A stretch of 64,000 nt of DNA, taken from the IMG/VR virus record IMGVR_UViG_3300042259_000159. The stretch is one strand, 5' to 3'. Made by a program: the position numbers and the translations under genes. The notes below the pieces were generated by a model. It was not told the DNA's origin. It was given only the letters and a program-made list of their open reading frames with translations, and searched no databases. Below, piece by piece: positions 7,479 to 36,949 of the stretch. Position 1 is the stretch's first letter. Each line of letters begins with the position of its first letter. Source of the DNA: a virus.

Positions 7479-8855
7479 ATGGAGATGTTTTTTAGCAACA
7501 AAGAGGTTATCAGGGCTTGGGAAAATGTTGTGAAAAAACTTAACGCCAGCGGTTTTAAAGGTGCCATTGTTGGCGGTGCAGTTAGGGATGTTTTTATGGG
7601 AAAGACTCCCACAGATATAGACATTGCTACAAATGCAACACCAGAGGAGGTTTGTAGCATCTTTAAAGGTGCTAAACTTGTTGGTGAAAGCTTTGGTGTT
7701 TGCCGTTGGAATGGCTATGAAATTGCTACTTATCGAAACGATGTCCACAACGGTATTGGTGATACTTGTTGCACCGTGAGGTATACAGACGATCTCATTG
7801 AAGACCTTAGGCGTAGAGACTTCACAATGAATGCTTGTGCATATGAGAGGCATCCTGACGGGACAACGCATTTTGTTATGGCACAGGCAGGTTGTCTGGA
7901 TGACATCGAGAATAAGCGTCTTGATTTTGTAGGCAATGCTGAAGATAGAATCAGGGAAGATCCCAACCGCAGCTTCAGAGCATACCGCATGATTTGCAAA
8001 ACAGGCTTTCTGCCGTCATATGCTACAGCAAAGATAATATACAACAGAGGTATTGTTGAAAAATATCTTCCGTACATTGCACCTGAGAGGATAGGTAAAG
8101 AGCTTATAAAATCTATGGAGGAGCCTTTCTCTTGGAATTTTTTTAGGTGTCTTTACAGGTCTGGTATTATGTACACTCTCATCCCTGAGATGGCACAGGC
8201 TTGGAATATTTGGGGAGGAAAATACCATGCAGAGTACGTTGGTGAACACCTTATGGCTGTTGGTATGGGTATCTCTGCAAAATTCCCCTTGCTGAGGCTT
8301 GCAGGGTATCTGCATGATGTTGGTAAGGGGGTAACACACGAGGATGGCAGCTTCATCCGGCATGAAAAAGAGGGCGTGCATATTGCGCGGAGGTTTCTTA
8401 AAAGCCTTAAGTTCTCTACAAAAGATACAGAGAAGGTTTGCAATATAATTCGTTGCCATATGCGTAGATTTGGTGAGAATGAAACGCCTGCTACAAACAG
8501 GCGAACCCTTGCATATCTTGCAAAACACAATGTCTGCACATACGATTTCATCCGTTTGCGGATTGCGGATCACAACGGCAACTTTGCATGCAAGAAGATG
8601 AAATTCAGAGATATTAAGTCCCTTGTCAGATGTTGGGACACCTATCAGTTTGAAAAACAAGCTGCCCATAGTAGGAAAATGCTTGCCATTAATGGCAGGG
8701 ATATTATGAAAGAGTTTAATATCCCTCCGTCAAGACTTGTTGGGGAGATGATTGAATTTGCCCATAATATTGTTCTTGACAATGTTGATAAAAACGAATA
8801 TAGTATCCTTATCAATGAAATTAAAAAGCGGTTCGGAGGTAGCAATGGCGAATGA
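7479..8855 (+). CDS. tRNA nucleotidyltransferase (CCA-adding enzyme) with HD phosphohydrolase domain
   Basis: Pol-beta nucleotidyltransferase motif GGAVRD...DIDIAT, RRDFTMNA; HD motif HLMAVG...YLHDVGK. Confidence 0.75.
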   Translation: MEMFFSNKEVIRAWENVVKKLNASGFKGAIVGGAVRDVFMGKTPTDIDIATNATPEEVCSIFKGAKLVGESFGVCRWNGYEIATYRNDVHNGIGDTCCTVRYTDDLIEDLRRRDFTMNACAYERHPDGTTHFVMAQAGCLDDIENKRLDFVGNAEDRIREDPNRSFRAYRMICKTGFLPSYATAKIIYNRGIVEKYLPYIAPERIGKELIKSMEEPFSWNFFRCLYRSGIMYTLIPEMAQAWNIWGGKYHAEYVGEHLMAVGMGISAKFPLLRLAGYLHDVGKGVTHEDGSFIRHEKEGVHIARRFLKSLKFSTKDTEKVCNIIRCHMRRFGENETPATNRRTLAYLAKHNVCTYDFIRLRIADHNGNFACKKMKFRDIKSLVRCWDTYQFEKQAAHSRKMLAINGRDIMKEFNIPPSRLVGEMIEFAHNIVLDNVDKNEYSILINEIKKRFGGSNGE

Positions 8856-9033
8856 ACTTAATCTAAGGCTTAAGCTTAACGATGTGGAGAGGGAGGCAGC
8901 CACCTACAGGGCGGTATGCAAGATGTTGTTTAATAGAATGTCTTCAGCAGGAGACCTTGCATTCATCCACAAAAAGGATCTTCAAAAAGCACTTGACAAA
9001 TATAAGGAGGTATCACAAGATGCAAATATATAA
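8845..9033 (+). CDS. hypothetical protein
   Basis: ATG after GGAGGTAG. Confidence 0.45.
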   Translation: MANELNLRLKLNDVEREAATYRAVCKMLFNRMSSAGDLAFIHKKDLQKALDKYKEVSQDANI

Positions 9034-9439
9034 ACCGAGCCACTTCAGGATTGAAGAACTTGTTGACAAAAAAACTTTCAACGACAGAGGCGAGAAGGCT
9101 TGGCAACTTTTGGATGACAGGGCTTTGTTTGTTCTTCAGCTTCTCAGAAAGCGTTATGGACCCATTACAGTTAACAACTGGCTGTGGGGAGGGGACAGAC
9201 AGTGGAGCGGCCTTAGAACAAAAGAGTGCAGTATTGGTGCAACATATTCTCAGCACAGGTTCGGAAGAGCCTTTGACTGTCTTATTAAAAACGCCACTGC
9301 CGAAGAAGTTAGAAAAGATATGCTTGACTTCTGGCCAAAACAGATGTATAACTTCCCTATCACGATGGAAGACGATGTAAGCTGGTTCCATTTTGATACG
9401 CGGCAACAGGAAAATCCAGTAACCATTTTTAAACCGTAA
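9020..9439 (+). CDS. endolysin, peptidase M15 (L-Ala-D-Glu / D-Ala-D-Ala peptidase-like)
   Basis: SQHRFGRAFD (SxHxxGxAxD) and downstream WFHFD; ATG 9020 after AGGAGG. Confidence 0.7.
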   Translation: MQIYKPSHFRIEELVDKKTFNDRGEKAWQLLDDRALFVLQLLRKRYGPITVNNWLWGGDRQWSGLRTKECSIGATYSQHRFGRAFDCLIKNATAEEVRKDMLDFWPKQMYNFPITMEDDVSWFHFDTRQQENPVTIFKP

Positions 9440-10239: not shown

Positions 10240-10431
10240 ATGAAGATGGGTTTTATGACTATTCTGGGTCTTATCTTTATTACGCTGAAACTTACAGGGC
10301 ATATCCTGTGGTCTTGGTGGTGGGTATTGGCACCTTTCTGGGGTCCAGCAGTAATTGCACTGATTTGCTTGATTTGTTTTGTAGCAAGCAACCTGCTGTT
10401 TAATACGAACAAAGGCAAAAATAGACTTTAA
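10240..10431 (+). CDS. small membrane protein, candidate holin
   Basis: 63 aa, two hydrophobic segments, AGGAGGAG upstream; lies ~800 bp after the endolysin. Confidence 0.4.
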   Translation: MKMGFMTILGLIFITLKLTGHILWSWWWVLAPFWGPAVIALICLICFVASNLLFNTNKGKNRL

Positions 10432-10449
10432 GATTAATTTAAAAACCGC

Positions 10450-10478
10450 TTGACAAAATCAGGCGGTTTTTCTATTGT
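10450..10478 (+). promoter_or_regulatory. sigma70-like promoter (TTGACA-N17-TATTGT) embedded in a hairpin
   Basis: aaccgcTTGACAaaatcaggcggttttt; near-identical element at 16911-16947. Confidence 0.5.
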
Positions 10479-10616
10479 GTTCCTACGGCAACGAGGAAAA
10501 GAACACAAATACGCAACAAACAAAAGGGGAAATAAAGATGAAATGGTTGGAACAGTTTGAACCTATCAGTAACACCACAAATGTAAAAGCAATTTATGAA
10601 GTTGCAGGTATCGTAG

Positions 10617-10889
10617 ATGGTCTTGGGGGATCTTTCTGACGAAACATTCAGTAGCTGGCAGGATGTTTTCAAGAAGTGCACGCCTCTTTATGCAGACTGC
10701 GTAGGAAGGAGTACATATCAGGTTGTCACCTATCTTAGAGAAATTAATGAAATGACCTACCAAGAAGCTGTTTCCTACATGTTACAGGAGATGCTCCCTT
10801 TATTTGGAAAGCCCATCTTCTGGCACAGTAAACATATACAGCTTTGGGATTATCTCTCAAAGCACGGTGTTAGTAAGAAGAAGGCGTAA
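10617..10889 (+). CDS. hypothetical protein; possibly fused to the upstream short ORF 10539-10640 across a G5 tract
   Basis: Two overlapping frames switch at ggggg (10622-10626). Confidence 0.4.
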   Translation: MVLGDLSDETFSSWQDVFKKCTPLYADCVGRSTYQVVTYLREINEMTYQEAVSYMLQEMLPLFGKPIFWHSKHIQLWDYLSKHGVSKKKA

Positions 10890-11067
10890 GGCTCCTATAG
10901 ACTTTTCAAAGAACTAGTTGGGGCATCAACTAGTGGAGTAGGGCATGTCAGACTGGAGAAATCTAGCAATGCCTGTTGATACCAGAATCCCAAGAACTTT
11001 AGCCTTGGGAGTATGTCAAGGACAAGTTGTGAATCGATTTGTTTTTTACAAAAAACACAAATTTCTA

Positions 11068-11096
11068 TTGACAAAACTTCTTAGCTTGGATATGTT
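11068..11096 (+). promoter_or_regulatory. sigma70-like promoter (TTGACA-N17-TATGTT)
   Basis: ctattgacaaaac...gttgtatttaac, paralogous to 5120. Confidence 0.5.
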
Positions 11097-11142
11097 GTAT
11101 TTAACAAAAACATTTTTTACATCAGAAAAAGAGAGAAGATCA

Positions 11143-11298
11143 TGATGTATAAAGAAATGACAATCATGCAGTTTTTGGCAAAACTGGCAAATGCCTCTGG
11201 AGATGAGGCACTTGACCTTGTTGGGGAATGGCAATGTGGAGGTCTTGTTGTTGGTGGAATCAGTCTTGATGATGCTGAAGAATTTGAAGCTAAATAAA
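11143..11298 (+). CDS. small hypothetical protein (51 aa)
   Basis: ATG after GAGAGAAG, downstream of the promoter at 11068. Confidence 0.35.
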
Positions 11299-11324
11299 AC
11301 ACATTTAATAAAAAAGGATTGACA

Positions 11325-11759
11325 ATGACCGAAAACAATTGTACAAAGTTTCTTGCACGTGAGAAGTACGAGGAAGCATGGATTTGCATGATAACAGCAC
11401 TGGAACATATTGAGAGTGCAAAATACCTTATCGGGCTTTGTAACAGTGTGCATGTCGGCGATGCAACCTATAACCTGAATCGTGCCACCGATGATATGCA
11501 AACGGCACACAGTTTCTACAAAGAATTCTTCGATACTCTGACGATTGGTTGTGATGACGAGGATGAACAAAATGTTTATCAAAGTGAGGAAGAAATTAAC
11601 GAGGCACTGTGTGACCTAGACATAATGGGGATAGACAGTAAAACTGTATGCATTTCTTGTTTTTATTGTGGGGGTATTTGCCCCAAAGACCCCGTTAGTT
11701 GCAATCAAGCAACACATTTTTATAAGTTCCTTCACAAGGATACAGGAGAGCGAGCATGA
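11325..11759 (+). CDS. hypothetical protein
   Basis: ATG 7 nt after AAAAAGGA. Confidence 0.5.
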   Translation: MTENNCTKFLAREKYEEAWICMITALEHIESAKYLIGLCNSVHVGDATYNLNRATDDMQTAHSFYKEFFDTLTIGCDDEDEQNVYQSEEEINEALCDLDIMGIDSKTVCISCFYCGGICPKDPVSCNQATHFYKFLHKDTGERA

Positions 11760-12094
11760 ACAAGTGTCAAGAAGAAATCCTTACTTTTGTTGTTGGGGTG
11801 GTTGCGGAGATGGAGCGTGAAACAGGAGCGGATATTTTTGTAAGTTACTCTCCCCACGTGTCTTGCATCAATGTTAATTTCCACGCTAATAAGTGGATAA
11901 GTGGACATGGATCAGATTTTGATGTGGTGTTTTATCTTGATTCTGAAGAGTATGATGATATAGCTGAAAGTTTCCTGTCTCTGGAGAATGCTAGGGATTT
12001 GATTGAAAAGCATCAACAAGATACCCTGCTTAGAAAGCAAAAAGCCATTAAGGAACTTGAAGAGCAGCTTAAACGCCTGAAAGAAGAGCAGTAA
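11756..12094 (+). CDS. hypothetical protein
   Basis: ATGA overlap with upstream gene. Confidence 0.5.
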   Translation: MNKCQEEILTFVVGVVAEMERETGADIFVSYSPHVSCINVNFHANKWISGHGSDFDVVFYLDSEEYDDIAESFLSLENARDLIEKHQQDTLLRKQKAIKELEEQLKRLKEEQ

Positions 12095-12103
12095 GTATTG
12101 AGG

Positions 12104-12128
12104 CCGGAAATAATCCGGCCTTTTTTAC
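12104..12128 (+). terminator. rho-independent terminator
   Basis: GGCCGG-aaataa-TCCGGCC hairpin followed by T6. Confidence 0.6.
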
Positions 12129-12290
12129 GTCTAAATCCAGAGGACTTTTTCATTTTAAAAGGTCTAGAGAGGTTTTTCATTTTGGGAGGTCTAAAGAACA
12201 TTTTCAATTTACAACCAAAAGTAAAAAGTCTAGAGAACATTTTTAATTTGAGGTCTAAAGAGGATTTTCATTTTCAGATTTTTGTATGAA
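12121..12290 (+). repeat. tandem ~27-bp imperfect repeats (GGTCTA[A/G]AGA...TTTTCATTT); first ~90 bp identical to 16694-16782
   Basis: Direct reading; five units here, three in the second copy. Confidence 0.8.
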
Positions 12291-12400
12291 AATGATACTC
12301 ATTATCACCGATAATGGTCGTTGAAAACGACATTCATTATCAACGATATTGATAATCATTTTCAATGATATTGAGTTTCATTATCAATCTAAATAGTAAC
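12290..12400 (+). repeat. cluster of CATTATCAA(C/T)G / TGATAA repeats
   Basis: cattatcaccgataatgg, cattatcaacgatattgataatcatt, cattatcaatc. Confidence 0.7.
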
Positions 12401-12659
12401 TATTACTAATAATAAAAATTGTGCAGGGGCGGTTTATAATGGATCTTAACCATGTGCCGGAATGCCTTTGATTTTTTCCTCGCTGGCAAAGACAGAATAT
12501 TAAAAATGCAAACGGCGGTCAAGCGGAAAATGAAAAAATATTAAAAATATTTTTTCGGCTTGCCATATCATTATATAGACGCTATATCCATCCCATACCA
12601 CAGACAATGAATGGAACGCGGAGGAATGGAGTTTTTATTAAAAATCGTCTGAAAAACAC

Positions 12660-12690
12660 TTGACAGTGATTCCGCTTTGTGTTTAGTTTT
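12660..12690 (+). promoter_or_regulatory. sigma70-like promoter (TTGACA)
   Basis: cacTTGACAgtg upstream of the gene at 12725. Confidence 0.4.
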
Positions 12691-12724
12691 TCACCTACAA
12701 GAACACAAAAAAGAGGTAAAGAAA

Positions 12725-12874
12725 ATGCCAACCATGTATCAATTTGCTAGTGCAACGCCCTACATCATTATTATTGTATCCATGCTGATCTGTGTCGGGA
12801 TCGGATCAACCCTTTCCAGTAAAAAAGATAGTAAGCACGCTTGGAACACAACATACAACGGTAAAAATATCTAG
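12725..12874 (+). CDS. small membrane protein
   Basis: Hydrophobic core PYIIIIVSMLICVGIG; GAGGTAAAG upstream. Confidence 0.45.
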   Translation: MPTMYQFASATPYIIIIVSMLICVGIGSTLSSKKDSKHAWNTTYNGKNI

Positions 12875-12884
12875 GAGGCTAAAA

Positions 12885-13067
12885 ATGTCTGATTTTCTTA
12901 CTCTTTTCAAGAGCATTGCGGCGGAGGTACTGGCCGAAGAGGAAACATCCCGCGCAGCTGCTACTACACTTGACGCTTGGCAATGGGCAACGGATGAAAC
13001 GGACGGATTGCCCGAACAGGTATGCAAACATATAGGTCTGTGGGAGGAACAGGAAAATGAAAGATAA
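12885..13067 (+). CDS. hypothetical protein
   Basis: ATG after AGGAGG. Confidence 0.45.
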   Translation: MSDFLTLFKSIAAEVLAEEETSRAAATTLDAWQWATDETDGLPEQVCKHIGLWEEQENER

Positions 13068-13172
13068 GCAGGTTTTGATTGATCTTGTCACGGCTTGCGG
13101 ATACATTTGCATTCTTTTTGCTATCCTTTATATATGCCTTTTTATACATGCAGCCTAGTCGGGAGGTGTGAA

Positions 13173-13403
13173 ATGCTTTTTTCAGATTTTTGTAGGGCGC
13201 TCCAGTGCACGCCGCTTGCCGGTATCCGGATTATTGAGGAGTGGGCAGAAAAGCACAGTACAGTCACCTGTAAAAATATTGTACCGTTCCGGCCTTGGCG
13301 GGCTGGACAAATATATGTTAATGAATTGTGCCCTGAAATATTTGACACCGTATATAAATGGTTTATCGGCAGGGGGGTAGTAAATAATGAAGACAAAGAG
13401 TGA
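13173..13403 (+). CDS. hypothetical protein
   Basis: ATG after GGGAGGTG. Confidence 0.45.
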   Translation: MLFSDFCRALQCTPLAGIRIIEEWAEKHSTVTCKNIVPFRPWRAGQIYVNELCPEIFDTVYKWFIGRGVVNNEDKE

Positions 13404-13674
13404 AAAAGATTTTTTCATGAAAAACTTTTGTTCCTATGGTTTTACACGCAAAAGCGTTTTGGCACTATATGACGCTGTACAGGAGTGGGAAGGCAAAGAA
13501 CAGGATACATACAATTTAGACGGTATACACGGCTACATACAGGAATGGCTTGCAATTAATCCGCCGGAGGTATTAGCATGCAAAATAACGTTACGCCGTG
13601 CCCGTGCCGATGATATTAACGCCGATCCAGAACAAATAACACTGTGGAGGAGGAATGCCGGTAAAAATACTTAA
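13387..13674 (+). CDS. hypothetical protein
   Basis: ORF track. Confidence 0.4.
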   Translation: MKTKSEKDFFMKNFCSYGFTRKSVLALYDAVQEWEGKEQDTYNLDGIHGYIQEWLAINPPEVLACKITLRRARADDINADPEQITLWRRNAGKNT

Positions 13675-14005
13675 AAATTGCATGGATGGATATAAAGATG
13701 CTATATTTTTTACCGAGGAGGATAAAAACGGCTGGACAGGAAACGAAACATTTAGTATGGAAGCGGAGGAGGTGATTTTCAAAGACTGCTCGCACTTTGT
13801 GGATACCATTATAGGCTATTTACCTATTGATTTTTGTGAATATGATCAACTAGGCTTTGATTTTTGGCTTACACGCAACGGGCAAAACGCTTTTGCAAAG
13901 CGTATAATGCTTTACAATGGTGCAGCAAAAATACTAACACAGGTATCTGAAGTTTTTGGCACTGTTTATGCCTACGCTGAAAATGATGAAATATTTTTGA
14001 AATAA
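13655..14005 (+). CDS. hypothetical protein
   Basis: ORF after GGAGGAATG. Confidence 0.45.
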   Translation: MPVKILKNCMDGYKDAIFFTEEDKNGWTGNETFSMEAEEVIFKDCSHFVDTIIGYLPIDFCEYDQLGFDFWLTRNGQNAFAKRIMLYNGAAKILTQVSEVFGTVYAYAENDEIFLK

Positions 14006-14008
14006 CGC

Positions 14009-14040
14009 TTGACAATGCTAAAAGTACAGATTAGAACAAG
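14009..14040 (+). promoter_or_regulatory. sigma70-like promoter (TTGACA)
   Basis: cgcTTGACAatg upstream of 14064. Confidence 0.4.
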
Positions 14041-14063
14041 ACAAACAACAGCAAAAAAGGAGC

Positions 14064-14660
14064 ATGGAAATGAAAATTATCGAAGCTTTTGAAATGTGGG
14101 AAAATGAAGTGCAGCCCTTCATCGTTGAAAAATACGGTGAAAATGACTTTCCGGCACTTGCGGAAAGCTGGAATGACTTCACAGACATTCTTTGCAAGGA
14201 CGGAGAATTGACGTCCTTGCAGTATCACTATGCACCGGCATATGATGAAGGTATGCCCGACGATGATCTGGAGTACATCCTTGACCAGCTTGGCATTGAG
14301 TTCCATTGCGAGACCATACCTGCACGTACAGACGGGCTTATGTCTGATATGCCTGCCGGTACGCGGCACTTTGAGTGCACATTCTATCAGGGCAACACTC
14401 CGGCTCTTGTTGTGCAGTACTCGCAAGGTCCTGCACACATGGGCATGCCCACTCGCGAGGAGGTTTTGCAAAGCATCATGCAAGATATCGCCTATGCCGA
14501 TTACGATTTTGAGGAGTTTTGCAACGAAATGGGCTACGATACTGACAGCAGGACGGCAGAAAGTATCTATAATGCAGTAGTGGAACAAAACGAAATTGTC
14601 CAAGCCATGTTTACGGCGGATGAAATTGCCGATCTTCAGCAGCTTTTTTACGATTTTTAA
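14064..14660 (+). CDS. hypothetical protein
   Basis: ATG after AAAAGGAG. Confidence 0.5.
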   Translation: MEMKIIEAFEMWENEVQPFIVEKYGENDFPALAESWNDFTDILCKDGELTSLQYHYAPAYDEGMPDDDLEYILDQLGIEFHCETIPARTDGLMSDMPAGTRHFECTFYQGNTPALVVQYSQGPAHMGMPTREEVLQSIMQDIAYADYDFEEFCNEMGYDTDSRTAESIYNAVVEQNEIVQAMFTADEIADLQQLFYDF

Positions 14661-14670
14661 CGAATAGTGC

Positions 14671-14699
14671 TTGACAGGTGCTGTATTAACCTATAATAC
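14671..14699 (+). promoter_or_regulatory. sigma70-like promoter (TTGACA ... TATAAT)
   Basis: gtgcTTGACAggtgctgtattaaccTATAATac. Confidence 0.5.
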
Positions 14700-14738
14700 A
14701 GTACCTACTCAACCACTATTAAAAACGGAGTAAAAGCC

Positions 14739-15323
14739 ATGCGTGAAATTATTACGAAAATTTACCGCTTTGAGGAATTGTCTGAAAAATCCCAAGCCCG
14801 TGCACTTGAAAAATATCGTGACATTTTTGTGTCTGATAGCCTTTGGTATGAGGATTTGCTTGAGGAATACAAGGCATGCCTCGAAAAATGTGGGTTCTAT
14901 GATGCAGAAATACTTTTTTCTGGCTTTTTCTCGCAAGGGGATGGAGCCTGTTTTGACGCACAACACATTGACGTTGCGGAAGTGCTCAATGCAATAATTA
15001 TGACTGATCAGGCATGCATTGACCGCGAATTTATCCGCTTTTACACACTGGCGAATCATGATGCAATCGAGTGCGACATTCTTCAGCGGTCATCCCTTTA
15101 TGTTCATGAGCATACCAGATACATAGGCGCGGATAGCCCGTTTTTGACTGAAATGGAAACAAAACGCCTTGAGGAAATTATTGAAAATTTTCGCCTTGAT
15201 CTGTGCTATACCATATACAACCGCCTTGAGGCGGAGTATCAATATCAGACCAGTGATGAAGTTTTGCGTGAGTTTTTCATTGATATGGAATGCGAGTTCT
15301 ATGAAAGCGGGAAGATGGTATAA
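14739..15323 (+). CDS. hypothetical protein
   Basis: ATG after GGAGTAAAAG. Confidence 0.5.
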   Translation: MREIITKIYRFEELSEKSQARALEKYRDIFVSDSLWYEDLLEEYKACLEKCGFYDAEILFSGFFSQGDGACFDAQHIDVAEVLNAIIMTDQACIDREFIRFYTLANHDAIECDILQRSSLYVHEHTRYIGADSPFLTEMETKRLEEIIENFRLDLCYTIYNRLEAEYQYQTSDEVLREFFIDMECEFYESGKMV

Positions 15324-15383
15324 CTATCAAAAATAGTTAGCAATGTTTGAGAGGAAAGAAAAATAATTTTTTATAAAAACCGC

Positions 15384-15411
15384 TTGACAGGTGTAGGGCA
15401 TATTTGTATGG
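15384..15411 (+). promoter_or_regulatory. sigma70-like promoter (TTGACA-N16-TATGGT)
   Basis: ccgcTTGACAggtgtagggcatatttgTATGGT. Confidence 0.45.
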
Positions 15412-15445
15412 TTGCCCTACAGACAACAAAAAAGGACGGTTAAAA

Positions 15446-15721
15446 ATGACAAAGCTTGAAAAACAGAACGCTAAAAAATGGGATGAAATTTGCAACCTCC
15501 TCCGCGCCCACGGCTATGAAATGGACCGTTATGGCAATATGGTCAAGGGCGAAAAGGGTAGTGCCGTGAGATATAAGAAGATGGCTCGCAATGTGCGCAA
15601 AGAGCGTGATTTTTATACGGAAGGGTATGACGGGAAAATGGAAAGGCTTTGGCGTAAAGTGTGGTCCATACCGCTTAAGCAGCTTGCCATTGTGGATGGA
15701 AAAATAACAAAAAATAAGTGA
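15446..15721 (+). CDS. hypothetical protein
   Basis: ATG after AAAGGACGG. Confidence 0.45.
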   Translation: MTKLEKQNAKKWDEICNLLRAHGYEMDRYGNMVKGEKGSAVRYKKMARNVRKERDFYTEGYDGKMERLWRKVWSIPLKQLAIVDGKITKNK

Positions 15722-15809
15722 TTTGGTGCATTGCGGGGAATCCTGAAAATAATCCTGACAGGATTCCCTGCCCCAGCGTGTCAAAAAACAAAACAGATTG
15801 GAGGATACA

Positions 15810-16037
15810 ATGATAGATGAAAATATCCGCTTCATTAGCATAGAACACGATTATCAGAATAGTGCGGTTCGAAGCTGGTTTAATGTTGACGGTCAGGATT
15901 GGTGTATTCACCTTTCCACTATGACAGGGGAGCGAACTATGCTTGACAGTGAGGGCTATCCAGTTTATCCGCGCAATAGACGTGAAGATGCTATCTGGCG
16001 TAGGCTTTTGCAACACGTATATAGGGAGCAGGTATGA
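15810..16037 (+). CDS. hypothetical protein
   Basis: ATG after GGAGGA. Confidence 0.45.
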   Translation: MIDENIRFISIEHDYQNSAVRSWFNVDGQDWCIHLSTMTGERTMLDSEGYPVYPRNRREDAIWRRLLQHVYREQV

Positions 16038-16291
16038 AAAATATAAAAGCAGTGGATAGAAAAAAGGACCTTTCCACAGGAACCATTGAGTTGATTCATT
16101 GGTTTCAGGATCAAGCGCACTGGCAAAAGGATCCGTGTTTCAATAGGATGTGCATTCATGTCGCTGATTGCCTTGAGTGTGGGACAATTACACCGATGGA
16201 GGGTTATGATATACAGGCATATGTACATCTATACGGATTATTCCCGGAGTGGCCGAAGGCGCGGGCGTCAAACTACTCACATACCATCTAG
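16034..16291 (+). CDS. hypothetical protein
   Basis: ATGA overlap with upstream gene. Confidence 0.45.
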   Translation: MKNIKAVDRKKDLSTGTIELIHWFQDQAHWQKDPCFNRMCIHVADCLECGTITPMEGYDIQAYVHLYGLFPEWPKARASNYSHTI

Positions 16292-16309
16292 TACACCAAG
16301 GAGCATATT

Positions 16310-16639
16310 ATGACCACAGTGAAAAGATTACAGAAGCTGGTTGAAGACATTGCAAGAGACATTGAAAACGGCGTAATTGATTGCGAACCCGTGGACGGTG
16401 AAGAGCCTACGGCATTTGATTACCTACAAAACGCACTTGCTATTGAGTACATTGTCAGCAGCAGGAAAGAATATCTTGGCGCACGCATCATGGTTGCATG
16501 TGGCGGACCTGATATCTGGATTAATACACGCACAAACACTGTGGAAGGCTACTGGGGCTCTAATGCAGCCGTGGCCATGGCCTCGGCATTGTTCCGCCGT
16601 CACGGAAAAGCGCTGGAGGAATTATACTTGTGTAGTTAG
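16310..16639 (+). CDS. hypothetical protein
   Basis: ATG after AAGGAG. Confidence 0.5.
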   Translation: MTTVKRLQKLVEDIARDIENGVIDCEPVDGEEPTAFDYLQNALAIEYIVSSRKEYLGARIMVACGGPDIWINTRTNTVEGYWGSNAAVAMASALFRRHGKALEELYLCS

Positions 16640-16673
16640 GGGCTACGTTAAAATTAGCAAAAACTTCAAAAAA

Positions 16674-16700
16674 GGCGTTGACAAGGTTGACGCCTTTTTT
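16674..16700 (+). terminator. hairpin plus T6, probable terminator
   Basis: ggcgttgacaaggttgacgcc followed by tttttt. Confidence 0.45.
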
Positions 16701-16782
16701 ACGTCTAAATCCAGAGGACTTTTTCATTTTAAAAGGTCTAGAGAGGTTTTTCATTTTGGGAGGTCTAAAGAACATTTTCAAT
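16694..16782 (+). repeat. second copy of the ~90-bp tandem-repeat element
   Basis: Identical to 12121-12209. Confidence 0.8.
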
Positions 16783-16918
16783 CCGATGCAGCCTTTGCCG
16801 CGTATAGCCGTGACCGCATTGGTTTGGATGGAGAACTGGAGGGATTGTATGCGTGTAAGCCTCCGCTAACACACATAAGGCTGCTTACAGTAAAAATAGA
16901 AAAACTATTCAAAACCGC

Positions 16919-16947
16919 TTGACAAAACCGGGCGGTTCTTCTATTGT
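16919..16947 (+). promoter_or_regulatory. sigma70-like promoter (TTGACA-N17-TATTGT) in a hairpin
   Basis: accgcTTGACAaaaccgggcggttcttcTATTGT; paralog of 10450. Confidence 0.5.
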
Positions 16948-16988
16948 GTTCCTAACGAACACAAACACTCAACAAAGAGAGGTAAAGA

Positions 16989-17333
16989 ATGTTTCCTATC
17001 AAGATGAATGTCAAGCATTTTTATGCCGCCAGAAAAGCGTTCCTGCATGCATTTATGCGCCACAACAACCCCGACAGTATATTCGACGAGACAGATTGCG
17101 CGATCAATGCCGTAAATCGTGAAAGAATCTATAAAAAAAGAGAAAAGGACGCGTTTGTTGTTGGATTTCTTGCGTTTTTGTCTGATATTGACAATATCAA
17201 AGAGCTGTACAGACAGCACGGGGAAGATGCTGTTATGAAGACTTGGCTAGTAGACAAAAAACTGGTGCTTACCGGTGACGAAGATATGATAGACGATGTT
17301 CTGTATAGGGTAGGGCTCAAGGTAGCTAAATAA
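16989..17333 (+). CDS. hypothetical protein
   Basis: ATG after GAGAGGTAAAG. Confidence 0.5.
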   Translation: MFPIKMNVKHFYAARKAFLHAFMRHNNPDSIFDETDCAINAVNRERIYKKREKDAFVVGFLAFLSDIDNIKELYRQHGEDAVMKTWLVDKKLVLTGDEDMIDDVLYRVGLKVAK

Positions 17334-17574
17334 TCAAAAAACCTCAAAACAACATAAATAACAGGAGCACACTATAACTGACCGCACATTCTTTATCCAC
17401 CTTATATCCGGCCACGTTGCTACGCTCGAAGAGTGGAGGGCAGACTATAAGTCAATGGATGCAGAACTATGGCACGGCAAGCCCGCTGAAGAGTGCAACC
17501 CTGATGAATGGCTTAAAGACGGCCTCCTTGAGGAATATGAAGCGGATCCCAACGAATAAAGCAGTTACACCACA

Positions 17575-17600
17575 GAGGCACCTATGAGGTGCCTCTTCTT
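17575..17600 (+). terminator. rho-independent terminator
   Basis: Perfect 8-bp stem gaggcacc/ggtgcctc, loop tatga, then ttctt. Confidence 0.55.
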
Positions 17601-17949: not shown

Positions 17950-18240
17950 TCAAGTGTTACTGATTTTGAATATCATTATCAATGGAGATATTGTCATTGA
18001 ACAGCATAACGCTGTTATACACACGGATCAATTAATTCCCATCGATCAGCATTTCGCTGGTGCTGCTGGAATCAACACTTGTTGAGATAATGACATCCAT
18101 TATCAATGCTGTTCAATGGCCGTTTTCAACGGCAATGTTTCACGTGAAACATTCCTGATCAGAATACTGGCAAGAAACATTGATAACGACAATCTTTATC
18201 AACGTATCTGGCGATCCTTTCAGGTTAACACAAATCTGGA
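17950..18240. repeat. TTATCAA(T/C)G repeat cluster with dyad symmetry (cattgaacagcat / atgctgttcaatg)
   Basis: Direct reading; non-coding. Confidence 0.7.
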
Positions 18241-18279
18241 AGAAAGTAAAGTAATATAAATTTTAATAAGGGGTTGACA

Positions 18280-18960
18280 TCTTCCTGATATTTTGATATT
18301 ATAGAAAGAGAGGCGTATGGGGAGGGGGGAGGCCTTAAGCACCGGTATACTTATATACCAAGTACCCCTATAGGTTCATGCCGGATATTTGCCCAAGTAC
18401 CCCTATAATGGTATACCGATATACTTATACACACCATATCTGCACACAGAAGGTATAGGGGGATATTTCCTGCTAGGATATTTCCACACAAAAAGGGGGA
18501 GTATATGGGAGGGATATTCCTGAAGGGAATAGATATTTTAGACAGGTATATATATATTATCTCTATGCTATATATACTCTATATATGTATATTCCATATA
18601 TACATATTTCTTCTTATTCTATTCTTCTATTTCTACTAATGAGATATATACATATTAGGACAGCATATGCATGTGTCTACATCACATGTAGACACATATA
18701 TACACATTCCCTTTCCTAACGGACAGCCGTATTATAACATATTTTTTGGATTTTGTCAAGAACTTTTTTGTATTTCACATGGAAAATATTTCATACCGGC
18801 TATTCCTTTTGGGAATAGCCTATTCCATTTTGGAATAACCATTCCTAGGGGAATAGCCTGTTCCCAGAGGGAACAGACATACCCGAAGGGAATAGATATG
18901 CCCATTGGAAATAGCAAAAGCCCACACACCTGTAAAGATATGTGGGCTGATAACATTAAC
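18280..18960. repeat. iteron-like array (TTCC-N5-GGAATAG units) plus TA-rich low-complexity repeats
   Basis: At least 6 units such as ttccttttgggaatagcc, ttccattttggaataacc, ttcctaggggaatagcc; aagtacccctata twice. Confidence 0.7.
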
Positions 18961-33953: not shown

Positions 33954-34037
33954 TGGTAGGAGAAGAGAGATTCGAACTCTCAAGGAATAATCCGTCGAGG
34001 CTTAAACTCGATGTGTTTACCATTTCACCATTCTCCC
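33954..34037 (-). tRNA. tRNA-Leu (anticodon UAA), type II, CCA encoded
   Basis: Manual fold: acceptor GGGAGAA/TTCTCCT, anticodon loop TTTAAGC, long variable arm, T-loop TTCGAAT. Confidence 0.65.
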
Positions 34038-34045
34038 GTATTTTT

Positions 34046-34067
34046 TATCTACCATTCCGCCATTCCC
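34046..34067 (-). other. orphan tRNA 5' fragment (Leu-like acceptor + D-arm)
   Basis: GCGGGAATGGCGGAATGGTAGA with no matching 3' half. Confidence 0.4.
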
Positions 34068-34076
34068 GCATTTATT

Positions 34077-34153
34077 TGGTACCCACTGTGAGATTCGAAC
34101 CCACACTAATCAGTTTCTAAGACTGATGCCTCTGCCAAGTTGGGCTATACCAG
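34077..34153 (-). tRNA. tRNA-like gene (class I, anticodon UAG) with mismatched acceptor stem; probably chimeric or disrupted
   Basis: D-arm, anticodon arm TCAGT-CTTAGAA-ACTGA and T-arm fold, but 5' ACTGGTA does not pair with 3' AGTGGGT. Confidence 0.4.
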
Positions 34154-34184
34154 TATTATGCTTATTATTTTATTTTGAAAGGCC

Positions 34185-34235
34185 ATATGTATACACATAT
34201 ATATATATACATATATATATGTATAGAGCAACCAA
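34185..34235. repeat. TA-rich microsatellite
   Basis: atatgtatacacatatatatatatacatatatatatgtatag. Confidence 0.8.
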
Positions 34236-34412
34236 AATGGTTAAATAAAAAGGTGTTTTGTGGAGACACCAAACTCCTCCAGTTTTAGTGATCTGGAAAC
34301 AATAAGCGGCGCAGGTGCTCTTTAAAACACGTGCTACCAAGCGTATAAATTGTCTAGGGGATTTCACCAAACACATTATGTTATTGGAGGGATCTTTCCC
34401 TAGACTCAGTAA

Positions 34413-34485
34413 AGCTCCTGACAGGACTTGAACCCGCAACCGGCTGATTACAAATCAGCTGCTCTGCCAGTTGAGCTACAGGAGC
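34413..34485 (-). tRNA. tRNA-Thr (anticodon UGU), CCA not encoded
   Basis: Manual fold: acceptor GCTCCTG/CAGGAGC, D-arm GCTC..GAGC, anticodon loop TTTGTAA. Confidence 0.7.
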
Positions 34486-34489
34486 AGAA

Positions 34490-34561
34490 CAGAGGGAGAA
34501 GGATTCGAACCTTCGAATGACGGGACCAAAACCCGTTGCCTTACCGCTTGGCTACCCCTCT
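34490..34561 (-). tRNA. tRNA-Gln (anticodon UUG), CCA not encoded
   Basis: Manual fold: acceptor AGAGGGG/TCCCTCT, anticodon stem ACGGG/CCCGT, loop TTTTGGT. Confidence 0.65.
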
Positions 34562-34569
34562 AAATTTTT

Positions 34570-34646
34570 TGGCTCCGGCGGCAGGATTTGAACCTACATT
34601 CGCAATGGTTAACAGCCATTTGCCTTACCAATTCGGCGACACCGGA
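34570..34646 (-). tRNA. tRNA-Asn (anticodon GUU), CCA encoded
   Basis: Manual fold: acceptor TCCGGTG/CGCCGGA, anticodon stem AATGG/CCATT, loop CTGTTAA. Confidence 0.65.
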
Positions 34647-34691
34647 ATGAACTTTTTATTTGTTATCAGCATTGTTTTGCTTTATTTTAAA

Positions 34692-34770
34692 TGGTCTCGG
34701 TGATTAGATTTGAACTAATGATTATTCCTGCTCCCAAAGCAGGTGCCATACCAAGCTAGGCGACACCGAG
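34692..34770 (-). tRNA. tRNA-Pro (anticodon UGG), CCA encoded
   Basis: Manual fold: acceptor CTCGGTG/CACCGAG perfect, anticodon stem CCTGC/GCAGG, loop TTTGGGA. Confidence 0.6.
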
Positions 34771-35251
34771 ATCAGGTGTGGTACCAAACTCCACTATGGG
34801 CAGAGGTTATAAGAAGGTCCGTACATGATATAGACAGATATTCTTCCATAACAGCGGTACGGACGCTGTCTCATTTTTATATCTTTCAGTGTGCTATTAC
34901 GCCAAAGGGAAATTAAGCCTTACCAGTTACGGGGTGCCCTTTTACTATCCACAAAGAATTTCAAATCGCGTGCATTCTAAGTATCGGAAAATTCTACAAC
35001 CACTTAAAGTACACCTCGTTTAAGAGATAGCGACCTGTGCTTCGTCCCACTCTTTAAAGGATGGCTGCCTCAAAGCCCACCTCCTGAAAAATGCATGAAG
35101 GATTATCCCTCCTTCGCTAAATACAACCTATCAATTTTAAGGGTTCTTGTCAAGAACATTTTAAGGTTTTTGAAATTTTTGTTGAACGCTGATTTGCTAC
35201 GCGGGTACAGCGTTCGAAACCTCGATAGCATCCTTGCCGTTGGCAAAGCTG

Positions 35252-35393
35252 TCAGGAGCCGCAGGAGGAGAATTGAACTCCTCTGGCATCAACACGCAGT
35301 CACCACAACTACATCTACCGTTACGGGTATGGCTCCCCATCCTAGTCACCTGTTGATACCTTATAGGTTCAGCCCTACCAAGGGCACTGCGGC
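35252..35393 (-). ncRNA. tRNA-like structured RNA (~142 nt) with 7-bp acceptor-like stem and T-arm; possible intron-containing or disrupted tRNA
   Basis: GCCGCAG ... GAGGAGTTCAATTCTCCTC CTGCGGC; body too long for a standard tRNA. Confidence 0.3.
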
Positions 35394-35399
35394 TTAAGT

Positions 35400-35620
35400 G
35401 GGTTGGTTGGTGCAGATTGTGAACGTACCCCCGCCTATAGAGGCGGAAGCTTCCTGCTTCAGCGAGAACAGCACCAGTAACTCCGAAGAGTTGTGGCGAA
35501 TTACACTCTCTCCACAGGCGTAAATTCCCGTGCGACCCACGGTACTTTATGAGTTACGCTAGGCAGATATTCGCCCAGCTTCTTCTCTAATATTTATTGC
35601 AGCGTTCTTGTCACGGTTAT
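35400..35620 (-). ncRNA. putative TnpB guide (omega) RNA region overlapping the tnpB 3' end and right end
   Basis: Position relative to tnpB; subterminal hairpin CCGCC-tataga-GGCGG at 35431-35446; no direct RNA evidence. Confidence 0.35.
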
Positions 35621-36795: not shown

Positions 36796-36799
36796 TGGC

Positions 36800-36843
36800 G
36801 GGTTAGGTTAAATCCCTTGTGTCTACTAATTCCACCAATCGGG
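36800..36843 (-). other. partial tRNA-Leu-like 5' fragment next to the IS left end
   Basis: GCCCGATTGGTGGAATTAGTAGACAC duplicates the 5' end of tRNA-Leu at 36940 but lacks a foldable remainder. Confidence 0.4.
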
Positions 36844-36853
36844 CTAAAATCTT

Positions 36854-36940
36854 TGGTGCCCAATGCAGGACTCGAACCTGCACGCCATTTCAGGCAGGAG
36901 GGCTTAAACCTCGTGTGTCTACCAATTCCACCAATCGGGC
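36854..36940 (-). tRNA. tRNA-Leu (anticodon UAA), type II, CCA encoded
   Basis: Manual fold: acceptor GCCCGAT/ATTGGGC, anticodon loop TTTAAGC, long variable arm. Confidence 0.6.
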
Positions 36941-36949
36941 TAAAATCTT

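What the first reader, a model, noticed from the sequence alone, without database searches (positions are those of the whole stretch)
10440..17600. Cassette-like island of about 20 individually promoted small ORFs, apparently GC-richer than the backbone
Between ~10.4 and 17.6 kb almost every small gene (50-200 aa, no recognisable domains) has its own TTGACA promoter and strong RBS; several are separated by hairpin terminators, and the island is bracketed and punctuated by repeat elements (12121-12400, 16694-16782, 17950-18240). This organisation is typical of early host-takeover or anti-defence loci and is a good place to look for uncharacterised inhibitors of host immunity.
Basis: inference. 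Interest (0 to 1): 0.6.

Follow-up and report, generated by a model that had tools for sequence, protein, structure and literature searches.

The report
Variable small-gene region of a gut phage
This is a real stretch of about 19 small phage genes of unknown function, arranged in seven short promoter-driven units, that gains and loses genes between close relatives; it is an ordinary kind of phage accessory region, not foreign DNA, and nothing in it matches a known immunity inhibitor.

Summary
The window is a roughly 92-117 kb myovirus known only from metagenomes. Its host is probably a Negativicute such as Phascolarctobacterium.

Confirmed:
- About 19 plus-strand genes of 33-196 aa lie at 10.5-17.6 kb. 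Twelve are under purifying selection (dN/dS 0.03-0.38).
- TTGACA is enriched on the plus strand (12 of 33 copies, 3.7 expected).
- Hairpin terminators and the named repeats are present.

Not confirmed:
- GC is not higher: 0.414 in the island and 0.414 in the window.
- Genes are not individually promoted. There are about 7 promoters for about 19 genes, in units of 1-6 genes.

No ORF matches a known anti-defence family or solved structure in Pfam, NCBIfam, PHROGs or PDB; PADLOC, which models defence rather than anti-defence proteins, also gave nothing.

Relatives at about 87-93% nucleotide identity keep the gene order but differ by whole small-ORF insertions and deletions. One such junction, and probably a second, lies at a repeated composite terminator-promoter hairpin unit. 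One window gene is frameshifted and truncated. The closest known analogue is the T4-type hyperplastic region with PeSL cassettes.

Leads:
- The "22-nt repeats" are arrays of Fur-box-like palindromes (7 sites, 0.02 expected).
- A 27-nt repeat array is more conserved than the flanking genes.
- Two 195-aa proteins have confident models with no solved-structure match. One family has about 11,000 clusters and also occurs in phage terminal repeats and on conjugative plasmids.

The parts
10441..10478 (+). Composite terminator-promoter unit 1. The hairpin AAAAACCGCTTGA/TCAGGCGGTTTTT carries the -35 TTGACA (10450), and the -10 TATTGT follows the T-run.
   Evidence: family D3; -17.1 kcal/mol, z = -5.7. 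Relatives carry a 393-aa gene immediately upstream of this unit.
10538..10889 (+). Disrupted gene: two ORFs (10538-10639 and 10617-10889) that form one 200-226 aa gene in relatives. Here it is frameshifted in a G-run near 10626-10630 and lacks the C-terminal ~89 aa Cys-rich part.
11068..11096 (+). Promoter P11068 (TTGACA-17-TATGTT), conserved in relatives. It drives genes 11142-11297 (51 aa), 11325-11759 (144 aa) and 11756-12094 (112 aa).
11142..12094 (+). Three genes of 51, 144 and 112 aa, all acidic. The 144-aa protein has a CX2CX2CX3CP motif and only 3 detectable relatives in 5.8 billion proteins.
12100..12122 (+). Intrinsic terminator ending the P11068 unit.
   Evidence: -17.9 kcal/mol, z = -5.3
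12118..12280 (.). Array of five 27-nt direct repeats (consensus about AGGTCTARAGARNNTTTTCATTTT). The first 91 nt (12118-12208) are repeated perfectly at 16692-16782. The array is 99-100% identical in relatives whose flanking genes are 87-93% identical.
   Evidence: No RNA-fold signal.
12288..12388 (.). Array of Fur-box-like 19-bp palindromes at 12288, 12345 and 12367. A fourth is split by a 13-bp hairpin insertion. Relative L097 has four in tandem at exactly 22-bp spacing.
12660..12688 (+). Promoter-like site P12660. The TTGACA is conserved in relative L088, but the -10 element is weak.
12725..14005 (+). Six tightly packed or overlapping genes: 12725-12874 (49 aa, membrane), 12885-13067 (60 aa), 13057-13158 (33 aa, membrane), 13173-13403 (76 aa), 13387-13674 (95 aa) and 13655-14005 (116 aa, phrog_1915).
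   Evidence: dN/dS 0.03-0.37 against relative L088.
14009..14660 (+). Promoter-like site P14009 plus gene 14070-14660 (196 aa, pI 4.1, phrog_4273). The AF2 model has pLDDT 96 and no PDB match. The family occurs in Burkholderia AH2, Xylella Salvo/Sano, PAK_P1-like and Rheinheimera phages.
14671..15323 (+). Promoter P14671 (TTGACA-15-TATAAT, with the -10 inside the hairpin 14676-14705) plus gene 14739-15323 (194 aa, pI 4.4, phrog_5162). The AF2 model has pLDDT 94 and no PDB fold match. The family has about 11,000 clusters.
15373..15419 (+). Composite unit 3: AAAAACCGCTTGACA, then a hairpin (15393-15420) enclosing the -10 TATGGT. Relatives carry extra ORFs (66 aa plus 37 or 66 aa) inserted just upstream, where the window has only 15334-15358.
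   Evidence: (D3, D6, D13)
15446..16639 (+). Four genes: 15446-15721 (91 aa, basic), 15810-16037 (75 aa), 16034-16291 (85 aa) and 16310-16639 (109 aa). Relative L087 has an extra 74-aa ORF between the first two.
16668..16782 (+). Terminator hairpin (16668-16700) overlapping the second copy of the 91-nt repeat (16692-16782, three 27-nt units). The repeat begins inside the 3' arm and T-run of the terminator in both copies.
   Evidence: -17.3 kcal/mol
16892..16954 (+). Composite terminator-promoter unit 2 (hairpin 16913-16937, TTGACA 16919, TATTGT). It is 91% identical to unit 1. Its upstream flank matches the flank of unit 1 in the relatives.
16989..17596 (+). Genes 16989-17333 (114 aa) and 17455-17559 (34 aa, acidic), then terminator 17574-17596.
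17962..18200 (.). Second cluster of Fur-box-like palindromes (17962, 18086, 18182), closing the island upstream of promoter +18274.

Best explanation
The region is a hyperplastic accessory-gene region of a novel myovirus, not an imported island.

Anatomy (shown). About 19 small genes are organised in seven short transcription units read by the host's primary sigma factor. Four promoters are embedded in or next to stable hairpins. In two units (10441-10478 and 16892-16954) the hairpin is an intrinsic terminator that carries the -35 hexamer in its stem and loop.

Expression (inferred). Each such unit ends the upstream transcript and restarts transcription. That insulates and separately tunes each small operon.

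Evolution (partly shown). These units are repeated at 68-95% identity over 47-63 nt. Together with the 91-nt repeat that starts inside two terminators, they are recombination substrates. Whole small ORFs are therefore gained, lost and decayed between close relatives, and the insertions and deletions lie in intergenic spacers; one junction, and probably a second, abuts a composite unit.

Function (inferred, not shown). The proteins are mostly lineage-specific, and many are acidic or membrane peptides. They probably act on the host soon after infection, in takeover, counter-defence or superinfection exclusion.

Repeats (inferred). The conserved non-coding repeats are DNA-level protein-binding arrays: Fur-box-like operators and 27-nt direct repeats. 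They would regulate this region or serve replication.
For: Genes are real and conserved in order
- dN/dS is 0.03-0.38 for 12 genes.
- Synteny holds in L087, L088, L089, L097 and L098.

Composition is native
- GC is 0.414 in the island and 0.414 in the window.

Promoters and hairpins
- TTGACA is enriched, 12 of 33.
- The -35 elements are conserved in relatives while the spacers diverge.
- Hairpin energies are -12 to -19 kcal/mol.
- The units are repeated (families D3, D6 and D13).

Gene flux (one junction, probably two, at a composite unit; the rest in intergenic spacers)
- Abutting unit 1 (10441-10478): relatives have a 393-aa gene at window 10440.
- Probably just upstream of unit 3 (15373-15419): 66 aa plus 37 or 66 aa ORFs at 15334-15358, though the similarity resumes at window 15359, before the unit.
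- In an intergenic spacer with no unit: 126-aa plus 78-aa ORFs at 11301, where the adjacent TTGACA overlaps the start of gene 11325 and is not a promoter.
- In an intergenic spacer with no unit: a 74-aa ORF at about 15712-15785.
- The relatives' unit 1 shares its upstream flank with the window's unit 2.
- Gene 10538-10889 is frameshifted and truncated.

The ORFs are mostly orphans
- Only 3 hit any PHROG.
- The 144-aa ORF has 3 relatives in 5.8 billion proteins.

Published precedent
- PeSL cassettes in T4-type hyperplastic regions are strong sigma-70-like promoters plus terminator stem-loops that mediate ORFan insertions and deletions (PMC2839356, PMC4122927).

Repeats are constrained DNA elements
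- The 27-nt array is 99-100% identical in relatives, against 87-93% in the flanks.
- It shows no RNA structure.
- Fur-box-like sites number 7, against 0.02 expected.
Against: - No expression data exist. The timing (early, middle or late) is inferred only from promoter type and position. The late module also uses a consensus host-type promoter.
- Three of the seven promoters have weak -10 elements or a 15-nt spacer.
- Only short contigs of relatives are available, so flux is documented at four junctions only. The right end (16.7-17.6 kb) has no relative to compare with.
- Recombination at the units is inferred from shared flanks and junction positions, not observed. Only the junction at unit 1 abuts a unit directly; those at 11301 and about 15712-15785 have none.
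- No deletion variant between the 91-nt repeats was found.
- The protein functions are entirely unknown.
Confidence: 0.6

Rival explanations
1. This is a dedicated anti-defence locus. Most of these ORFs would be inhibitors of host immunity such as restriction, CRISPR or abortive infection, expressed immediately on DNA entry.
For: - Small, acidic, orphan proteins sit behind host-type promoters.
- Cassette-wise turnover between close relatives is typical of arms-race genes.
- The 14739-15323 family lies in terminal repeats of jumbo phages and in an SSB / RadC / strawberry-notch stretch of a conjugative plasmid.
Against: - No match to any anti-defence family or solved anti-defence structure.
- Acidity is not significantly enriched over other small ORFs.
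- The two widespread families are strongly conserved, with invariant polar residues. That looks more like housekeeping early functions than arms-race inhibitors.
- There are no functional data.
Confidence: 0.25
2. The 4.57-kb block between the two perfect 91-nt direct repeats (12209-16782) is a recently inserted foreign or mobile cassette. It would have integrated as a circle by one crossover in the repeat.
For: - The direct repeats are perfect and start inside two different terminators.
- The genes in the block are slightly GC-richer (0.431) than the left part (0.396).
- Short-read assemblies break exactly at the repeat.
Against: - The GC difference is within normal variation (z = +1.35), and the segment to the right of the block is just as GC-rich.
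- The 91-nt sequence is also 100% conserved in two diverged relatives. That points to functional constraint rather than a fresh scar.
- Relatives carry the same genes in the same order.
- There is no integrase or recombinase, and no empty-site variant was found.
Confidence: 0.12
3. The repeat regions are the essential feature. They would form an iteron-type replication origin, or a control locus with operator arrays bound by host Fur or a phage regulator. The small genes around them would be ordinary middle genes of the replication module.
For: - Five direct repeats lie next to an AT-rich stretch (GC 0.33) with palindromes, downstream of primase-helicase and DNA polymerase.
- A second partial array lies 4.5 kb away.
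- The arrays are more conserved than the genes.
- Fur-box-like sites are far above chance. One sits just downstream of the late promoter at 40883.
Against: - No initiator or DNA-binding protein was identified nearby.
- The 27-nt spacing is not in helical phase.
- GC skew follows transcription direction and gives no origin signal.
- This reading does not exclude the main explanation.
Confidence: 0.3
4. Many of the small ORFs are chance reading frames in non-coding DNA.
For: - Several are only 33-60 aa.
- One called ORF (10945-11145) overlaps a promoter and has a poor coding score.
Against: - dN/dS is 0.03-0.38 for all 12 ORFs that could be tested, including the 33-aa and 49-aa ORFs.
- Ribosome-binding sites are strong and the packing suggests translational coupling.
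Confidence: 0.03

Closest known systems
Hyperplastic regions with PeSL (promoter-early stem-loop) cassettes of T4-type phages (Arbiol et al. 2010, PMC2839356; Comeau et al. 2014, PMC4122927)
   Same: - Repeated composite units of a near-consensus sigma-70-type promoter plus a terminator stem-loop.
- The units are concentrated in a region of small, non-essential ORFans.
- Close relatives differ by insertion and deletion of whole ORFs; one junction, probably two, lies next to a unit.
- Shared flanks indicate exchange between units.
   Different: - The phage is not T4-like. Its tail sheath is only 32% identical to its best matches, which are rV5-like phages.
- The -35 hexamer lies inside the terminator hairpin rather than beside it.
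- The -10 consensus is TATTGT-like.
- Only about 3 clearly homologous units were seen.
- Mini-circle formation was not tested.
Early or host-takeover gene clusters of lytic phages, such as the T5 pre-early region and the SPO1 terminal-repeat host-takeover module (from my own knowledge of the field, not tested here)
   Same: - Many small genes of unknown function, each or in small groups behind strong host-type promoters and ribosome-binding sites.
- Homologues of one gene lie in terminal repeats of other phages.
   Different: - The region lies internally, downstream of the replication genes. It is not shown to be in a terminal repeat or to enter the cell first.
- No homology to T5 or SPO1 takeover genes was found.
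- Timing is unknown.
Anti-defence islands in the leading regions of conjugative plasmids (Samuel et al. 2024, PMC11541004, listed)
   Same: Homologues of gene 14739-15323 occur on 94 plasmids, 33 of them conjugative. In one plasmid the homologue lies in an SSB / RadC / strawberry-notch stretch.
   Different: - Only one of about 19 genes is shared. The 14070-14660 family is absent from plasmids.
- None of the known leading-region anti-defence genes (ArdA, KlcA, PsiB, Acr) is present here.
- I did not confirm that the plasmid stretch is the leading region.
Fur boxes (19-bp GATAATGATAATCATTATC, or the 7-1-7 form TGATAATnATTATCA)
   Same: - Seven sites have 3 or fewer mismatches to the 19-bp consensus, against 0.02 expected.
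- One relative has an 18/19 match and four boxes in tandem at 22-bp spacing.
   Different: - The sites lie in a phage genome, 70-270 bp from the next promoter, apart from the one downstream of P40883.
- Neither Fur nor any other binder has been shown.
- The host's own Fur consensus is unknown.

Membership tests
PeSL-type hyperplastic region (T4-type phages) | Composite unit of a strong sigma-70-like promoter plus a stem-loop that can terminate transcription | tested here: met
   10441-10478 and 16913-16947 each have a hairpin with a T-run, TTGACA-17-TATTGT, and energies of -17.1 and -11.9 kcal/mol. Terminator and promoter activity were not measured.
PeSL-type hyperplastic region (T4-type phages) | Several sequence-related copies of the unit within one genome region | tested here: met
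   Family D3 has 3 copies at 68-91% identity over 47 nt. Family D6 has 4 copies of AAAACCGCTTGACA. Alignment A5 shows them together.
PeSL-type hyperplastic region (T4-type phages) | The units flank ORFans that differ between closely related phages, and the ends of insertions and deletions lie at the units | tested here: inconclusive
   Relatives differ by four insertions or deletions, at window 10440, 11301, 15334-15358 and about 15712-15785. Only the first abuts a composite unit (unit 1), and the third lies just upstream of unit 3. The junctions at 11301 and about 15712-15785 have no unit beside them (one search shows the TTGACA at 11319 overlaps the start of gene 11325). Flanks are shared between unit 1 of the relatives and unit 2 of the window. 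Only four junctions could be examined.
PeSL-type hyperplastic region (T4-type phages) | Recombination between units produces excised mini-circles | not testable with these tools
   This needs inverse PCR on infected cells or virions.
PeSL-type hyperplastic region (T4-type phages) | The host genome is a T4-like myovirus | tested here: not met
   The tail sheath is 32% identical to its best matches, which are rV5-like phages. There is no close DNA match in 50,697 phage records. This is therefore an analogue in another lineage, not a member.
Known anti-defence proteins (anti-CRISPR, ArdA/KlcA/Ocr anti-restriction and others) | Sequence or profile similarity to a described family | tested here: not met
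   No hits above threshold in Pfam, PHROGs, NCBIfam, PADLOC or PDB sequences, for every ORF of 75 aa or more that I submitted (85 aa for PDB sequences); the shorter ORFs were not run against every library.
Known anti-defence proteins (anti-CRISPR, ArdA/KlcA/Ocr anti-restriction and others) | Fold similarity to a solved anti-defence protein | tested here: not met
Toxin-antitoxin antitoxin (database names 'YeeU-like antitoxin' and 'antitoxin of toxin-antitoxin stability system') for gene 14739-15323 | A match to an antitoxin family model or fold, and an adjacent cognate toxin gene | tested here: not met
   The names come from other records' annotation. None of 34 family members hit an antitoxin model in Pfam, and NCBIfam gave none. 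There is no fold match. The neighbours in the window are unrelated small ORFs with their own promoters.
Horizontally acquired genomic island | Base composition deviating from the backbone | tested here: not met
   GC is 0.414 in the island and 0.414 in the window, at the 59th percentile of equal-sized windows.
Horizontally acquired genomic island | Flanking direct repeats and a recombinase | tested here: inconclusive
   A perfect 91-nt direct repeat flanks 12209-16691. There is no integrase or recombinase, and the repeat is equally conserved in relatives.
Fur-regulated operator | A match to the 19-bp Fur-box consensus | tested here: met
   Seven sites have 3 or fewer mismatches, against 0.02 expected. 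Relative L097 has an 18/19 match.
Fur-regulated operator | Binding by Fur and overlap with a regulated promoter | not testable with these tools
   Only site 40937 lies within a transcribed leader, about +20 of P40883. Binding needs a gel-shift or ChIP experiment.
Iteron-type replication origin | Three or more direct repeats next to an AT-rich region, with a cognate initiator gene | tested here: inconclusive
   Five 27-nt repeats lie next to AT-rich DNA (GC 0.33). No initiator was identified, and the spacings are 27, 27, 39 and 25 nt.

The most novel reading that the evidence does not exclude
There are two readings the evidence does not exclude. They could hold separately or together.

(1) The ultraconserved 27-nt repeat array and the tandem Fur-box-like palindromes could form a switch. 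These palindromes flank the right half of the region, and one sits on the leader of the late-gene promoter. A virulent gut phage would use them to couple its gene expression or replication to the host's iron status through host Fur, or through a phage mimic of it.

(2) The 14739-15323 family could be a so-far unrecognised "first-entry" establishment or counter-defence factor. It has about 11,000 clusters, a confident fold absent from the PDB, and an invariant Q-G-D-G / Y-x-H signature. It is shared by phage early regions, terminal repeats and conjugative plasmids.
Probability: 0.12. Interest if true: 0.7.

Novelty: new member of a known kind. Interest (0 to 1): 0.4.

Why it matters
- The region shows that regulatory cassettes which insulate transcription units and also promote gene shuffling, known from T4-type phages, occur in an unrelated myovirus of an anaerobic gut bacterium. 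That helps explain how orphan genes turn over in uncultured phages.
- It gives a defined, compact set of about 19 verified small genes to screen for host-directed functions.
- It flags two very widespread protein families with no function and no solved fold.
- It flags conserved non-coding arrays, Fur-box-like and 27-nt repeats, that are directly testable as regulatory or replication elements.

Tried and rejected
1. Close DNA relatives in annotated phages: none by megablast. The sensitive search found only a 120-nt patch.
2. Close relatives in IMG/VR and JGI metagenomes: searches with single proteins and with a near-identical alignment returned only the same phage or a 2-kb contig. Synteny therefore had to rest on five short contigs.
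3. Co-occurrence of island genes around 80 distant homologues of gene 14739-15323: essentially none.
4. My recollection that the 66-aa ORF inserted in relatives might be DUF2829 / Tad2-like: no Pfam hit, so rejected. It hits only phrog_35422, of unknown function.
6. The annotation "RNA polymerase binding protein" in Acinetobacter phage CP14: that record's annotation is plainly unreliable, for example 60-aa ORFs named "DNA polymerase".
7. Rfam: nothing in the island.
8. RNA structure in the 27-nt array: z-scores of +0.9 and +0.2.
9. The 27-nt repeat in other viral contigs: only one chance match.
10. A variant with the block between the 91-nt repeats deleted: not found. Assemblies simply break at the repeat.
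11. Literature on phrog_5162, phrog_4273 and phrog_1915, on "YeeU-like" phage proteins, on Phascolarctobacterium myoviruses, and on Fur boxes in lytic phages: nothing relevant.
12. Acidic-protein enrichment: not significant.

Full report
CONTEXT

The window belongs to a tailed phage with three blocks.
- A plus-strand replication block (1-9.4 kb) holds a primase-helicase, a family-A DNA polymerase, a CCA-adding enzyme and an M15 peptidase.
- A minus-strand block (19-41 kb) holds two DNA methylases, a ligase, NrdD, eight tRNAs and a TnpB-like transposase.
- A plus-strand myovirus structural module (41-64 kb) holds the prohead protease, sheath, tape measure and baseplate.

Window positions 4739-25323 are 100% identical to a 70-kb JGI metagenome contig. 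The same phage is IMG/VR contig 3300042267_000152 (91.6 kb), and its proteins also sit on a 117-kb contig. No annotated phage is close. Megablast finds nothing, and the tail sheath is only 32% identical to rV5-like phages. The TnpB-like gene is 94-96% identical to copies in Phascolarctobacterium genomes and 83-94% identical to copies in other Negativicutes. The host is therefore probably a gut or rumen Negativicute (inference).

CHECKING THE OBSERVATION

Genes. A codon-usage and ribosome-binding-site gene model and JGI's calls on the identical contig agree on 18-19 plus-strand genes of 33-196 aa between 10538 and 17559.

Related contigs at about 84-93% nucleotide identity could be recovered by exact look-up of homologues (L087, L088, L089, L097, L098). 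Genes 12725-16639 occur there in the same order. All twelve show dN/dS of 0.03-0.38, including the 33-aa and 49-aa membrane peptides. The genes are real.

Domains. None is recognisable. Pfam, NCBIfam and PADLOC give nothing significant. PHROGs gives three hits, all to families of unknown function: 13655-14005 to phrog_1915, 14070-14660 to phrog_4273 and 14739-15323 to phrog_5162.

GC content. The "GC-richer" claim fails. The island is 0.414 and the window is 0.414. The right part is 0.431 (z = +1.35) and the left part is 0.396.

Promoters.
- Plus-strand TTGACA is truly enriched: 12 of the 33 copies in the window, against 3.7 expected, p = 1.4e-4.
- Only seven copies are intergenic and followed by a plausible -10 element. 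P10450, P11068, P15384 and P16919 have a 17-nt spacer and TATTGT, TATGTT or TATGGT. P14671 has TATAAT after a 15-nt spacer. P12660 and P14009 have weak -10 elements.
- In relatives the -35 hexamers are kept while the spacers diverge.
- The layout is therefore seven units of 1-6 genes, not one promoter per gene.

Terminator hairpins are real.

Two details correct the gene list.
- 10538-10639 and 10617-10889 are halves of one gene that is 200-226 aa in relatives. In the window it is frameshifted in a G-run and has lost its Cys-rich C-terminal third.
- 10945-11145 contains promoter P11068, scores poorly as coding sequence and is probably not a gene.

ANATOMY OF THE REGULATORY UNITS

At 10441-10478 and 16913-16947 a strong hairpin carries the -35 hexamer in its stem and loop (AAAAACCGCTTGA...TCAGGCGGTTTTT, -17.1 and -11.9 kcal/mol). 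A T-run and the -10 element follow. Each is a terminator and a promoter in one 40-nt unit. The two copies are 91% identical over 47 nt. A third unit (15373-15419) shares the AAAAACCGCTTGACA head and has a hairpin around its -10 element. P14671 likewise has its TATAAT inside a -19 kcal/mol hairpin.

COMPARISON WITH RELATIVES: GENE FLUX

Mapping L097 and L098 onto the window shows five differences.
- Relatives carry a 393-aa membrane-protein gene exactly where the window has unit 1.
- The relatives' unit 1 has the upstream flank AAAAATAGAAAAACTATTCAAAACCGC. In the window that flank belongs to unit 2 (16892-16918), so flanks have been exchanged between units.
- L097 has 126-aa and 78-aa ORFs inserted at window 11301.
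- L087 and L089 have a 66-aa ORF plus a second ORF (37 aa in L087, 66 aa in L089) inserted between gene 14739-15323 and unit 3. L087 also has a 74-aa ORF between 15721 and 15810.
- The window's 10538-10889 gene is decaying.

None of the variable ORFs has a known function. Most island ORFs have few or no homologues beyond this phage group. For example, the 144-aa ORF has three relatives in 5.8 billion proteins.

This is the behaviour described for T4-type hyperplastic regions. There, PeSL cassettes (strong sigma-70-like promoter plus terminator stem-loop) flank non-essential ORFans and mediate their shuffling (PMC2839356, PMC4122927). The present phage is not T4-like, so I treat this as an analogue in a new lineage, not as a member.

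THE REPEATS

The 91-nt perfect repeat (12118-12208 = 16692-16782) begins inside the 3' arm and T-run of two otherwise different terminators. It contains three of the 27-nt units. The first array has five units (12133-12274).

In L097 and L098 this array is 99-100% identical to the window, although the neighbouring genes are 87-93% identical. It is therefore a constrained element rather than a fresh duplication scar. It shows no RNA-folding signal on either strand, which favours a DNA-level protein-binding array.

The "22-nt repeats" turned out to be Fur-box-like palindromes.
- The 19-bp consensus GATAATGATAATCATTATC, allowing 3 mismatches, hits seven distinct sites: 12288, 12345, 12367, 17962, 18086, 18182 and 40937. 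Only 0.02 are expected.
- The 7-1-7 form gives 17 hits against 6.3 expected, 11 of them in the two clusters.
- Relative L097 has four boxes in tandem at exactly 22-bp spacing, one matching 18/19.
- In the window the second box is split by a 13-bp hairpin insertion.
- Site 40937 lies about 20 nt downstream of the start of the perfect promoter at 40883, which heads the structural module.

Whether host Fur or a phage protein binds these sites is unknown. I found no literature precedent for such arrays in a lytic phage.

THE TWO LARGER PROTEINS

Gene 14739-15323 (194 aa, pI 4.4)
- It belongs to a very large family: 11,123 clusters at 50% identity with E <= 1e-3, more than 600 IMG/VR loci, 207 annotated phages and 94 plasmids.
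- Ten columns of the 34-sequence family alignment are invariant: G62, F63, Q66, G67, D68, G69, A70, Y121, H123 and Y160.
- In jumbo phages it often lies in the terminal repeats.
- In a Celeribacter conjugative plasmid it lies in an SSB / RadC / strawberry-notch stretch.
- The database names "YeeU-like antitoxin" and "antitoxin of toxin-antitoxin stability system" are not supported by any model or fold test here.

Gene 14070-14660 (196 aa, pI 4.1)
- Its model is also confident (pLDDT 96), with no PDB match.
- Homologues occur in Burkholderia phage AH2 (the first gene of a divergent early-looking operon), Xylella, PAK_P1-like and Rheinheimera phages, but not on plasmids.

Both families are conserved under purifying selection. 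That pattern argues for a defined biochemical role. It says nothing about what that role is.

INTERPRETATION

The best-supported reading (confidence about 0.6) is a native, hyperplastic accessory-gene region. Composite terminator-promoter units insulate its short operons, and the same units act as recombination substrates.

That its products act on the host early in infection is a reasonable inference. The evidence is host-type promoters, orphan small proteins, and one family that recurs in first-entering DNA of other elements. It remains untested, and the specific anti-defence reading gets about 0.25.

The foreign-island reading is disfavoured, because composition is native and relatives share the arrangement. 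The repeat arrays probably have a regulatory or replication role of their own. That role is compatible with the main reading and is the most interesting open point.

VERDICT

This is a new member of a known kind of phage genome region, with moderate interest (0.4).

Noticed in passing
window 42190-46349 (+): Five group I introns (Rfam RF00028, 51-96 bits) lie within about 4 kb at the start of the structural module: 42190-42402, 42559-42828, 43153-43386, 44876-45191 and 46043-46349. They probably split packaging or head genes. This is an unusually dense cluster.
   Followed up: no
window 33954-37033 (-): A TnpB-like transposase ORF (35559-36677) is 94-96% identical to copies in Phascolarctobacterium genomes. 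It lies between two duplicated tRNA-Leu(taa)/tRNA-Leu(tag) pairs (33954-34145 and 36854-37033). This looks like a recent insertion-sequence acquisition from a Negativicute host, possibly with a duplication of the tRNA pair.
   Followed up: partly
window 18270-18900: Two consensus promoters converge: +18274 (TTGACA-17-TATTAT with TG) and -18759 (TTGACA-17-TATAAT with TG). They face each other across about 450 bp of TA-rich low-complexity DNA with several short repeat families and 20-nt GGGAATAGCC-type repeats (18791-18883). There is no convincing ORF and no Rfam match. This could be an antisense RNA pair or an origin.
   Followed up: no
window 40883-40955: A perfect TTGACA-17-TATAAT promoter heads the structural module. 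It is followed at about +20 by a Fur-box-like palindrome (40937-40955) of the same type as the arrays at 12.3 and 18 kb.
   Followed up: partly
window 11325-11759 (+): The 144-aa acidic ORF carries a CX2CX2CX3CP motif typical of 4Fe-4S ferredoxins. It has a weak NCBIfam hit to ferredoxin III (E = 0.003, far below the cut-off). Only three homologues exist, all in relatives of this phage.
   Followed up: partly
L097 880-2829, corresponding to window ~8840-8850: A relative carries a 649-aa RlaP-type nucleotidyltransferase with a LAGLIDADG domain, inserted right after the CCA-adding enzyme gene. It is absent from the window.
   Followed up: no
window 9020-9439 and 10240-10431 (+): An M15-peptidase, endolysin-like gene (phrog_894) and a conserved 63-aa membrane protein (phrog_1374) sit between the replication genes and the island. 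These possible lysis genes lie far from the structural module.
   Followed up: no
window 10626-10630: The frameshift that splits the 205-aa gene lies in a run of five G. The same split protein is found on four independent JGI contigs, so it is probably real rather than a sequencing error. Slippage or programmed frameshifting was not excluded.
   Followed up: partly
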